A stretch of 64,000 nucleotides of DNA from a phage. Made by a program: the position numbers and the translations under genes. Location: sequence record MZ956761.1, one strand, 5' to 3'. Within the stretch, counting starts at the first letter, position 1, and each line of letters begins with the position of its first letter. Under the pieces are notes generated by a model. That model had not been told where the DNA came from and did not search any database. It worked only from the letters and a program-made list of their open reading frames with translations. This document shows, piece by piece, positions 26,668-42,611 of the stretch.

Positions 26668-28095
26668 GTGGTAGAAATTATTCTTTCTCATCTCATATTT
26701 GATCAAGCTTATTTTTCAAAAGTTTGGCCATATATGGATTCAGAATATTTTGAAAGTGGTCCAGCTAAAAATACATTCAAATTAATTAAATCTCATGTTA
26801 ATGAGTACCATAGCGTTCCATCTATTAATGCGTTAAATGTTGCATTAGAAAATAGTTCATTTACTGAAACAGAATATTCTGGTGTAAAAACACTTATTTC
26901 AAAACTAGCTGATTCTCCGGAAGACCACAGTTGGTTAATAAAAGAAACAGAAAAATATGTTCAGCAAAGGGCGATGTTTAATGCTACGTCTAAAATAATC
27001 GAAATTCAAACTAATGCTGAGCTTCCTCCGGAAAAACGAAATAAGAAAATGCCGGACGTTGGTGCTATTCCTGACATCATGCGTCAAGCATTATCTATTT
27101 CATTTGATAGCTACGTTGGTCATGATTGGATGGATGACTACGAAGCACGCTGGCTATCTTATATGAATAAAGCTCGTAAAGTTCCATTTAAACTTCGTAT
27201 TTTGAATAAAATTACAAAAGGCGGAGCTGAAACAGGAACACTGAACGTTTTAATGGCTGGTGTTAACGTTGGTAAGTCATTAGGATTGTGTTCATTAGCA
27301 GCAGATTATTTGCAGCTCGGACATAATGTTCTTTACATTTCCATGGAAATGGCAGAAGAAGTTTGTGCTAAGCGTATTGACGCTAATATGCTTGATGTTT
27401 CTCTTGATGACATTGATGATGGGCATATTTCTTACGCTGAGTATAAAGGAAAAATGGAAAAATGGCGTGAGAAATCTACTCTCGGTCGTTTAATCGTTAA
27501 GCAATATCCCACTGGTGGAGCAGACGCTAATACATTTCGATCGCTTTTAAACGAATTGAAGCTCAAGAAGAATTTTGTTCCAACAATCATTATTGTTGAC
27601 TATCTAGGTATTTGTAAATCTTGCCGCATCAGAGTTTATTCAGAAAATAGTTACACAACTGTTAAAGCTATCGCAGAGGAATTGCGTGCTCTGGCTGTTG
27701 AAACCGAAACTGTTCTTTGGACTGCAGCGCAGGTTGGTAAGCAAGCTTGGGATTCTTCTGATGTTAACATGAGCGATATTGCAGAATCTGCCGGTCTTCC
27801 AGCAACAGCCGATTTTATGCTTGCGGTCATTGAAACCGAGGAGCTAGCAGCTGCTGAACAACAACTCATTAAGCAAATCAAATCACGATATGGTGATAAG
27901 AATAAATGGAATAAGTTTTTGATGGGTGTTCAAAAAGGAAATCAGAAATGGGTAGAAATTGAACAAGATTCTACTCCAACTGAAGTAAGTGAAGTAGCAG
28001 GTTCACAGCAGATTCAGGCTGAACAGAATCGCTATCAAAGAAACGAATCTGCTCGAGCCCAGTTAGATGCTTTAGCGAATGAATTAAAATTTTAG
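26668..28095 (+). CDS. 41: replicative DNA helicase gp41
   Basis: 475 aa; GTG start; Walker A GVNVGKS; N-terminus MVEIILSHLIFDQAYF as recalled for T4. Confidence 0.9.
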   Translation: MVEIILSHLIFDQAYFSKVWPYMDSEYFESGPAKNTFKLIKSHVNEYHSVPSINALNVALENSSFTETEYSGVKTLISKLADSPEDHSWLIKETEKYVQQRAMFNATSKIIEIQTNAELPPEKRNKKMPDVGAIPDIMRQALSISFDSYVGHDWMDDYEARWLSYMNKARKVPFKLRILNKITKGGAETGTLNVLMAGVNVGKSLGLCSLAADYLQLGHNVLYISMEMAEEVCAKRIDANMLDVSLDDIDDGHISYAEYKGKMEKWREKSTLGRLIVKQYPTGGADANTFRSLLNELKLKKNFVPTIIIVDYLGICKSCRIRVYSENSYTTVKAIAEELRALAVETETVLWTAAQVGKQAWDSSDVNMSDIAESAGLPATADFMLAVIETEELAAAEQQLIKQIKSRYGDKNKWNKFLMGVQKGNQKWVEIEQDSTPTEVSEVAGSQQIQAEQNRYQRNESARAQLDALANELKF

Positions 28096-28132
28096 TTTAC
28101 AAGCCGACAAGACTATGGTATAGTAGTCTTGT
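28095..28132 (+). promoter_or_regulatory. early promoter embedded in inverted repeat
   Basis: GTTTAC 28095-28100, TATAGT 28119-28124, arms ACAAGACTA 28107-28115 / TAGTCTTGT 28124-28132. Confidence 0.55.
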
Positions 28133-28153
28133 TGGTTAAATGAGGAGATTGTT

Positions 28154-28336
28154 ATGGAATTGGTAAAGGTAGTTTTTATGGGGTGGTTTAAGAACGAAAG
28201 CATGTTTACTAAAGAAATCACAATGATGAAAGATGACGTTCAATGGGCTACTAATCAATATGCTGAAGTTAATAAAGCACTAGTTAAAGCTTTCATTGAT
28301 GACAAGAAAGTATGCGAAGTGGATTGCCGAGGATAA
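28154..28336 (+). CDS. dmd: Dmd antitoxin (inhibitor of RnlA/LsoA)
   Basis: 60 aa; sequence agrees with my recollection of T4 Dmd; adjacent to gene 41. Confidence 0.8.
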   Translation: MELVKVVFMGWFKNESMFTKEITMMKDDVQWATNQYAEVNKALVKAFIDDKKVCEVDCRG

Positions 28337-28337
28337 T

Positions 28338-28595
28338 ATGCATATCGTTTTATTTAAACCTACTCCGTATAACGTCAGGAAAAATACTCAATTCAAAGCA
28401 CTTATCGCAGATACGTGGGAATTGGTATTAGATATTCCAGCAGAAGAAAGCCCTCCATTTGGTCGAGTGGAATTTATTAAGTTTGCTGTGCGCCCTACAA
28501 AGCGGCAGATTCGCCAATGCAAAAGATACTTTCGTAAAATCGTCAAGTTAGAGAAACAGTTTGTAACATGTGATTATACAGAAGTTTTAAAATAG
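28338..28595 (+). CDS. 61.4-position protein, possibly TifA-like
   Basis: 85 aa, ATG 28338 coupled to dmd stop; name by position only. Confidence 0.45.
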   Translation: MHIVLFKPTPYNVRKNTQFKALIADTWELVLDIPAEESPPFGRVEFIKFAVRPTKRQIRQCKRYFRKIVKLEKQFVTCDYTEVLK

Positions 28596-28597
28596 CT

Positions 28598-28640
28598 GTT
28601 TACAAGCTGATAGAGTTGTGTTATAGTAATTCTATCAGCT
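28598..28640 (+). promoter_or_regulatory. early promoter embedded in 10-bp perfect inverted repeat
   Basis: GTTTAC 28598-28603, TATAGT 28622-28627, arms AGCTGATAGA 28605-28614 / TCTATCAGCT 28631-28640. Confidence 0.6.
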
Positions 28641-28658
28641 AATCGCGGAGAAAAGAAA

Positions 28659-28913
28659 ATGATGCTAGTTAATAGAGAATATCAGTTTAAATCAGAAGAA
28701 GATTTGGAAAAATTCGCGAGTGGTTGTGAACTGAATAGACGCACAGCTAAAGTCATAGGATTAAAACCCTTTACAGTTCTAGATTGTGAAGTTTCTAAAT
28801 TCCGCAGAGGGTGTTCTATTAGCGGTCATGCTCTGGTTGATGGGAACACATTTTTCTTTGTTTTTAGCGTCAGAGAACTTTTATTGATTAACGAACTTGA
28901 GGAAATAAAATAG
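28659..28913 (+). CDS. hypothetical protein (84 aa)
   Basis: ORF with GGAG RBS, own promoter-hairpin upstream. Confidence 0.5.
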   Translation: MMLVNREYQFKSEEDLEKFASGCELNRRTAKVIGLKPFTVLDCEVSKFRRGCSISGHALVDGNTFFFVFSVRELLLINELEEIK

Positions 28914-28958
28914 TTTACTTTTGTTTTAAACATGTTATTATAGACTTATCAAAACAAA
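28913..28958 (+). promoter_or_regulatory. early promoter embedded in 8-bp inverted repeat
   Basis: GTTTAC 28913-28918, TATTAT 28936-28941, arms TTTGTTTT 28920-28927 / AAAACAAA 28951-28958. Confidence 0.55.
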
Positions 28959-28977
28959 CGAGTAAATGGAGAACAAA

Positions 28978-29160
28978 ATGTCTAAAGTATCAGGTTATCA
29001 ATTATTAACACAAGAACAACGTTCAGAGATGGATTCTTTACAAGAACGGTGTCAGCATAGAAATAACGCACTTGATTCATTTTTATTAGTTGAATATGAA
29101 AACTTGTGCTCTAGACTTGAAAAAGAATATGTTCATCAACATGAAGGAGGAGAAGAATGA
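28978..29160 (+). CDS. hypothetical protein (60 aa)
   Basis: ATG 28978 after GGAG RBS. Confidence 0.45.
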   Translation: MSKVSGYQLLTQEQRSEMDSLQERCQHRNNALDSFLLVEYENLCSRLEKEYVHQHEGGEE

Positions 29161-29234
29161 AACTGAAATCACCAATTATTGCAATTTGTCTGTTTGCTTC
29201 TACTAGTGTTTACTTTTGTTGAAAATTGAGATAC

Positions 29235-29242
29235 TATAAATA
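29235..29242 (+). promoter_or_regulatory. T4 late promoter TATAAATA
   Basis: Exact TATAAATA about 22 nt upstream of the sp start. Confidence 0.6.
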
Positions 29243-29263
29243 TAAACTACTGAGGAGATTATC

Positions 29264-29557
29264 ATGAAAAAATTTGTTTTTGCTGCAATTTTTGCTTTGG
29301 CTTCTTGTACTGCTCAGCCTGCTATGGCGGGTTATGATAAAGATTTGTGTGAATGGTCTATGACTGCAGATCAGACTGAGGTTGAAACTCAAATTGAAGC
29401 AGATATTATGAATATCGTTGAGCGTGATCGTCCTGAAATGAAAGCTGAAGTGCAAAAACAGCTTAAGTCTGGTGGTGTAATGCAGTATAATTATGTTCTG
29501 TATTGCGATAAAAACTTTAATAATAAAAATATCATCGCTGAAGTGGTAGGTGAGTAA
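29264..29557 (+). CDS. sp: Spackle (Sp), periplasmic superinfection-exclusion protein
   Basis: 97 aa with signal peptide; sequence agrees with my recollection of T4 Sp. Confidence 0.75.
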   Translation: MKKFVFAAIFALASCTAQPAMAGYDKDLCEWSMTADQTEVETQIEADIMNIVERDRPEMKAEVQKQLKSGGVMQYNYVLYCDKNFNNKNIIAEVVGE

Positions 29558-41970: not shown

Positions 41971-42186
41971 ATGAAACGTAAAATTGTTCAGAATTGCACT
42001 AATGACGAATTTGAAGATGTATTATTTGATCCAGATTTGGTAGTGGTTCAAAAGGAACATACCGTTAAGTTTACTCACTTGACTTCGGTTTATGTGTATG
42101 AAAAGATTGGTGATAAACAACCGATTTATGGTGTATTCCGTGAAATCACTGAAGACGGTACAACTTACTGGAAGGAAATTTATTAA
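41971..42186 (+). CDS. hypothetical protein (71 aa), cef-position
   Basis: ORF; size fits T4 cef. Confidence 0.45.
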
Positions 42187-42611
42187 TGGCTATTAAATTT
42201 GAAGTTAATAAATGGTATCAATTTAAAAATAAACAAGCTCAAGAAAATTTTATTAAAGACCATACTGATAACGGAATCTATGCACGTCGTTTAGGTATGC
42301 ATCCTTTTAAAATTTTAGATGTTGACCATCTTGGTCGTCCTACTAAAATTGTGACATCTGCTGGCACAGTTGGATATGCAACACATGGTGATATCCTTGA
42401 CGAAAACTTTATCTGGCTTTCTACTAACGAAGCTGGGTTCTTTGATGAAGTGGAAAATCCATATCAGGCAGCTGAAGAGCAAGAGCAGGAAGAGAAAGAG
42501 CAAGAACAAATAGAAGATTTCACAGAATTCCCGGTCATGAAAGTTACTATTGAAAATAATGAACAGGCATGGTCCTTGTATCAGATGTTGAAAGCTCACT
42601 TTAAGGAATAA
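42186..42611 (+). CDS. hypothetical protein with acidic [11 protein letters not shown] segment (141 aa), goF-position
   Basis: ORF. Confidence 0.5.

What the first reader, a model, noticed from the sequence alone, without database searches (positions are those of the whole stretch)
28095..29160. Two extra promoter-hairpin-driven small ORFs inside the dmd/sp counter-defence cluster
Between gene 41 and sp lie dmd (28154-28336), a coupled 85-aa ORF, and then two further ORFs (28659-28913, 84 aa; 28978-29160, 60 aa). Each of the latter has its own GTTTAC/-10 promoter sitting in a perfect inverted repeat (arms 28605-28614/28631-28640 and 28920-28927/28951-28958). As I recall, T4 has only dmd, 61.4, sp, 61.2 and 61.1 here, so these look like self-contained inserted units at a locus that already houses an antitoxin and a superinfection-exclusion protein. 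They are the strongest candidates in the window for an undescribed anti-defence function.
Basis: partly seen in the sequence, partly recalled or inferred. Interest (0 to 1): 0.6.

Follow-up and report, generated by a model that had tools for sequence, protein, structure and literature searches.

The report
Two swappable early-gene cassettes beside dmd
Two small accessory genes, each with its own early promoter, sit in this T4-like phage between the anti-toxin genes dmd/tifA and spackle; they are real genes that relatives gain and lose, but the cassette type and the "anti-toxin island" idea are already published and their function is untested.

Summary
The window is identical here to Escherichia phage ADUt. 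Relative to T4, T2, T6 and about 85% of matching phage records, it carries a 610-bp insertion (28597-29206) between tifA (gene 61.4) and the sp promoter.

The insertion holds two independent cassettes. Each has a T4-type early promoter fused to the upstream stop codon, an inverted repeat across the -10, a GGAG ribosome-binding site and a small ORF. Relatives exist with neither, either or both cassettes, and the breakpoints lie in short repeated promoter or ribosome-binding-site sequences. This is the published PeSL (promoter-early stem-loop) shuffling mechanism.

The ORF84 hairpin is strong (-18 kcal/mol). The ORF60 hairpin is marginal (13 of 200 shuffles fold as well).

ORF84 is a stand-alone homologue of the GoF N-terminal domain (hhalign 97%). 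ORF60 is an acidic two-helix protein from a small family on mobile elements. Both are under purifying selection.

Neither resembles Dmd, TifA, AdfA or any solved structure. An anti-defence role is plausible from location only, and Srikant et al. 2022 already proposed this region as an anti-TA island. This is a new member of a known kind, of modest interest.

The parts
28095..28137 (+). dmd-tifA early promoter with stem-loop. -35 GTTTAC at 28095-28100 overlaps the gene 41 stop codon; -10 TATAGT at 28119-28124; 15-bp stem 28102-28116/28123-28137.
   Evidence: -21.8 kcal/mol, z -5.85. Variants in T4 and ime09 keep pairing through G.U.
28154..28336 (+). dmd, antitoxin against RnlA/LsoA
   Evidence: Pfam PF17587, E 1e-45; PMC9391042
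28338..28595 (+). tifA (gene 61.4), ToxN inhibitor, 85 aa
   Evidence: 98% identical to T4 gp61.4; DUF7279; PMC9391042, PMC10853763
28597..29206 (+). 610-bp segment absent from T4, bounded by TGTTTAC direct repeats (28597-28603 and 29207-29213)
   Evidence: Alignment with T4; empty slot in T2, T6 and most records
28598..28650 (+). ORF84 PeSL. -35 GTTTAC 28598-28603; -10 TATAGT 28622-28627; 14-bp stem 28605-28618/28627-28640 enclosing the -10; SD GGAG 28647-28650.
   Evidence: Identical in 7 related loci, and it drives ORF60 in Ec_MI-02.
28659..28913 (+). ORF84: stand-alone homologue of the GoF N-terminal domain
   Evidence: phrog_2980 E 3e-20; BLASTP to T4 GoF E 2e-8; hhalign 97.2%, E 3e-11, residues 3-81 against GoF 6-90; purifying selection against the SP18 homologue
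28913..28971 (+). ORF60 PeSL. -35 GTTTAC 28913-28918 overlaps the ORF84 stop; -10 TATTAT 28936-28941; weak A/T stem 28920-28927/28951-28958 (extendable to 28913-28927/28951-28967); SD GGAG 28968-28971.
   Evidence: -9.7 kcal/mol, z -1.87, 13 of 200 shuffles. PP01 carries a stem-breaking G>A change.
28978..29160 (+). ORF60: acidic (pI 4.9) two-helix protein of a small family found on mobile elements
   Evidence: phrog_37915; 9 distant homologues; AF2 pLDDT 83.9, helices 12-27 and 31-56; pN 0.27-0.30 against pS 0.83-0.94; only in-frame indels among phages
29161..29207 (+). Tail of the ORF60 cassette, holding most of an unannotated 21-aa hydrophobic ORF (29157-29222, ATGA overlap with the ORF60 stop)
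   Evidence: Found only in, and in all of, the 21 ORF60-bearing records; translation
29208..29237 (+). sp early promoter (-35 GTTTAC 29208-29213, -10 TACTAT 29232-29237). Its first 13 nt, GTTTACTTTTGTT (29208-29220), repeat 28913-28925.
   Evidence: No hairpin (z +0.23). The RB3/Shfl2 junction lies exactly in this repeat.
29264..29557 (+). sp (spackle)
   Evidence: PF25676, E 9e-45

Best explanation
The two ORFs are two independent PeSL-type early-gene cassettes in the plastic region between gene 41 and gene 61 of a Tequatrovirus.

Each unit starts at the stop codon of the gene before it, which is fused to a T4-type early promoter (TAGTTTAC...). It carries an inverted repeat that straddles the -10, then a GGAG ribosome-binding site and a small ORF.

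The short promoter and ribosome-binding-site sequences recur at every gene boundary here. The phage's own homologous recombination can therefore add, delete or re-pair cassettes without disturbing neighbouring genes. That accounts for the four architectures seen in relatives.

The left arm of each hairpin lies upstream of the transcription start. The hairpin can therefore form only in RNA reading through from upstream (inferred). There it would act as an attenuator or a 3'-end stabiliser for the dmd-tifA message, not as part of the cassette's own mRNA.

The products are real early accessory proteins. ORF84 is a single-domain paralogue of the GoF N-terminal domain. ORF60 is an acidic helical hairpin.

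Their function is inferred only. The most likely role is as host-strain-specific modulators of RNA fate or inhibitors of host RNase-type toxins, like their neighbours Dmd and TifA.
For: Anatomy.

The insertion relative to T4 is bounded by TGTTTAC. All four architectures exist: T4/T2/T6 have neither ORF; RB3 and Shfl2 have ORF84 only; Ec_MI-02 has ORF60 only; ADUt, ime09, PP01 and GEP001 have both.

The breakpoints are exact. Loss of ORF60 falls between the 13-bp repeats GTTTACTTTTGTT. Loss of ORF84 falls between the GGAGAA ribosome-binding sites, which leaves ORF60 behind ORF84's promoter-hairpin.

The SP18 group (Gaprivervirus) carries a 57%-identical ORF84 at a different slot, directly after gene 41, with its own terminator, promoter and ribosome-binding site.

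Promoter-associated hairpins recur. Six of 19 GTTTAC promoters in the window fall in the lowest 1.5% of random 65-mers for folding energy. SP18 promoters carry hairpins of unrelated sequence.

This matches the published description of PeSLs, including the T4/PST consensus TTTACW-N17-TAYWAT and stem-loops overlapping the -10 (PMC2839356, PMC4122927).

Coding evidence: synonymous sites are saturated while pN is 0.2-0.3, and only in-frame indels occur. ORF84 homology to the GoF N-terminal domain.

Neighbours are anti-toxin genes (PMC9391042, PMC10853763). GoF(D25Y) stabilises an mRNA (PMC12152347).
Against: No transcription, translation or phenotype data exist for either ORF.

The ORF60 stem is A/T-only, statistically marginal and broken in PP01.

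Neither hairpin is followed by a U-tract, and the scan found no intrinsic terminators. Terminator activity is therefore unproven here.

As a set, the promoter segments do not fold significantly better than random windows (Mann-Whitney p = 0.12). Only a subset carries strong stems.

Wild-type GoF itself has no known function (PMC12152347).
Confidence: 0.75

Rival explanations
1. One or both ORFs are new anti-defence proteins, for example inhibitors of a toxin-antitoxin or abortive-infection system, added to an anti-TA island.
For: They lie between dmd/tifA and sp/adfA-like genes, in a region Srikant et al. called a possible anti-TA island with 'attractive anti-toxin candidates' (PMC9391042). 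They have early promoters. They are patchily distributed, as expected for host-specific accessory genes: ORF84 in 84 phage records and ORF60 in 21 of about 503. ORF60 is small and acidic, like many protein inhibitors. An ORF60 homologue lies about 800 bp from a RelE/ParE-HTH pair on a Vibrio plasmid.
Against: The case is guilt by association only. There is no similarity to Dmd, TifA, AdfA or any characterised inhibitor. Spackle, in the same cluster, is a superinfection-exclusion factor and not an anti-defence one. Plastic regions of T4-like genomes hold many small genes of unrelated function (PMC4122927).
Confidence: 0.25
2. The ORFs are ancestral to T-even phages, and T4, T2 and T6 lost them. 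They would be deletions in the majority rather than inserted units.
For: ORF84 occurs in two genera, Tequatrovirus and Gaprivervirus. Recombination between flanking repeats is reversible, and excision is the half demonstrated experimentally for PeSLs (PMC2839356). The empty junction in T4 is a clean single copy of the repeat.
Against: About 85% of matching records have the empty slot. ORF60 is nearly identical in all 21 carriers, which suggests recent spread. Its other relatives lie outside T4-like phages. ORF84 in SP18 sits at a different position.
Confidence: 0.3
3. The ORFs are spurious reading frames in an intergenic spacer, and the inverted repeats are chance.
For: Both ORFs are short. 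The 8-nt A/T repeat is within chance expectation. IME339 and EcNP1 annotators did not call ORF84.
Against: Synonymous sites are saturated while amino-acid divergence is low. Homologues at 43-81% identity carry invariant motifs. Only in-frame indels occur. Ribosome-binding sites are correctly spaced. The ORF84 hairpin was matched by 0 of 200 shuffles.
Confidence: 0.03

Closest known systems
PeSL (promoter-early stem-loop) ORFan cassettes of T4-type phages (Arbiol et al. 2010, PMC2839356; Comeau et al. 2014, PMC4122927)
   Same: An early promoter lies next to the upstream stop codon, a stem-loop overlaps the -10, and a ribosome-binding site and start codon sit at the 3' end, just upstream of a small gene of unknown function. 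The units lie in a plastic region, and indels between close relatives have breakpoints in the repeated promoter sequence. The promoter fits the T4/PST consensus TTTACW-N17-TAYWAT.
   Different: Stems here are A/T-rich and unique in sequence, not the G-run/C-run stems of RB49/phi1. The ORF60 stem is marginal. Promoter activity, terminator activity and mini-circle formation were not tested here. One breakpoint (Ec_MI-02) uses the ribosome-binding-site part of the element rather than the promoter.
T4 GoF (comC-alpha) and the GoF/MotB.1/Frd.2 LSm-like family (Kim et al. 2025, PMC12152347)
   Same: ORF84 aligns over its whole length with the GoF N-terminal domain (27-29% identity; hhalign 97%). It is an early gene of a Tevenvirinae phage.
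   Different: ORF84 lacks the linker and C-terminal domain (84 aa against 141 aa). The true goF orthologue is elsewhere in the same window (42186-42611). The short family has invariant C23, C43, C52 and H57, which GoF lacks. The fold prediction was inconclusive. The RefSeq label 'goF mRNA metabolism modulator' is a paralogue-level transfer.
Anti-TA island genes dmd, tifA (61.4) and adfA (61.2) (Srikant et al. 2022, PMC9391042; Guegler et al. 2023, PMC10853763)
   Same: Same locus, same early expression class, similar size, and non-essential accessory status.
   Different: There is no sequence or predicted structural similarity to any of the three, and no functional data.
Morons of lambdoid phages (Hendrix et al. 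2000, as discussed in PMC2839356)
   Same: A single accessory gene carrying its own promoter is inserted between conserved genes.
   Different: Morons are usually antisense to their neighbours and arise by illegitimate recombination. Here the units are co-oriented and exchange through their conserved regulatory sequences.

Membership tests
PeSL cassette | T4-type early promoter (TTTACW-N17-TAYWAT for T4/PST) directly after the upstream stop codon | tested here: met
   28599 TTTACA-N17-TATAGT and 28914 TTTACT-N16-TATTAT, both TG-extended. The stop codons of tifA and ORF84 abut or overlap the GTTTAC.
PeSL cassette | Stable stem-loop adjacent to or overlapping the promoter | tested here: met
   Met for ORF84: -18.0 kcal/mol, z -3.6, 0 of 200 shuffles. 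Only marginal for ORF60: -9.7 kcal/mol, z -1.9, 13 of 200 shuffles, and broken in PP01.
PeSL cassette | Lies in a plastic region just upstream of a small gene of unknown function, and coincides with indels between close relatives | tested here: met
   Four architectures, with breakpoints in promoter or ribosome-binding-site repeats.
PeSL cassette | Promoter is active and the stem-loop terminates or attenuates upstream transcription | not testable with these tools
   No U-tract follows either stem, and the scan found no terminator-like sites. This needs reporter assays or Term-seq.
PeSL cassette | Excision as a mini-circle by recombination between flanking PeSLs | not testable with these tools
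   A 13-bp direct repeat flanks the ORF60 cassette. This needs outward-facing PCR on infected cells or virion DNA.
GoF / LSm-like family | Sequence homology to the GoF N-terminal domain | tested here: met
   phrog_2980 E 3e-20; BLASTP E 2e-8; hhalign 97.2%, E 3e-11 over residues 3-81.
GoF / LSm-like family | Predicted five-stranded bent beta-sheet (LSm/SH3-like) fold | tested here: inconclusive
GoF / LSm-like family | Two-domain architecture: N-terminal domain, flexible linker, C-terminal domain | tested here: not met
   ORF84 ends where the GoF N-terminal domain ends. It is a form with the N-terminal domain only.
GoF orthologue (goF gene itself) | Syntenic position between cef and 39.2, about 141 aa | tested here: not met
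   The orthologue is at window 42186-42611. ORF84 is a paralogue.
Known anti-TA proteins (Dmd, TifA, AdfA) | Homology to PF17587 (Dmd), DUF7279 (TifA) or PF23813 (AdfA) | tested here: not met
   Neither ORF84 nor ORF60 matches any of them.
Known anti-TA proteins (Dmd, TifA, AdfA) | Neutralises a host toxin or restores plating on a defence-carrying host | not testable with these tools
   Needs co-expression rescue and efficiency-of-plating assays.

The most novel reading that the evidence does not exclude
ORF84 and/or ORF60 are new phage inhibitors of a host RNase-type toxin or other abortive-infection system. They would extend the dmd-tifA-adfA anti-TA island with cassettes that move between phages through their promoter sequences. 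If ORF84 is one, it would give the first physiological role for the GoF/LSm-like domain family. The ORF84 promoter-hairpin might also stabilise the upstream dmd-tifA message or promote its amplification.
Probability: 0.2. Interest if true: 0.65.

Novelty: new member of a known kind. Interest (0 to 1): 0.32.

Why it matters
The locus is an unusually clean natural example of cassette shuffling through promoter and ribosome-binding-site repeats, because all four presence/absence states are available in sequenced phages.

It nominates two short, conserved, early-expressed genes for direct testing in a region where three of the known genes already defeat toxin-antitoxin defences.

It also shows that the database label 'goF mRNA metabolism modulator' on the 84-aa protein is a paralogue-level transfer and not an orthologue assignment.

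No new principle is shown.

Tried and rejected
- Pfam, NCBIfam and PADLOC gave nothing for ORF84 or ORF60. Rfam gave nothing for 27900-29400. The scan found no intrinsic terminators.
- Profile searches of PDB sequences found nothing for either family.
- Foldseek of the ORF60 model found no PDB hits, and nothing better than E 2.5 in BFVD.
- Neighbours of distant ORF60 homologues on metagenomic contigs L010 and L011 matched no PHROG or Pfam family, so they gave no context.
- The segment after ORF60 (29150-29212) has no relatives beyond the 21 ORF60-bearing phages. I could not show that the 21-aa ORF is a remnant of a longer gene.
- Literature searches found no paper that tests either ORF.
- I considered a CCCH zinc site in ORF84 from the invariant Cys and His residues. 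The model was too poor to check the geometry.
- I considered the ORFs as spurious frames and rejected this on the conservation data.
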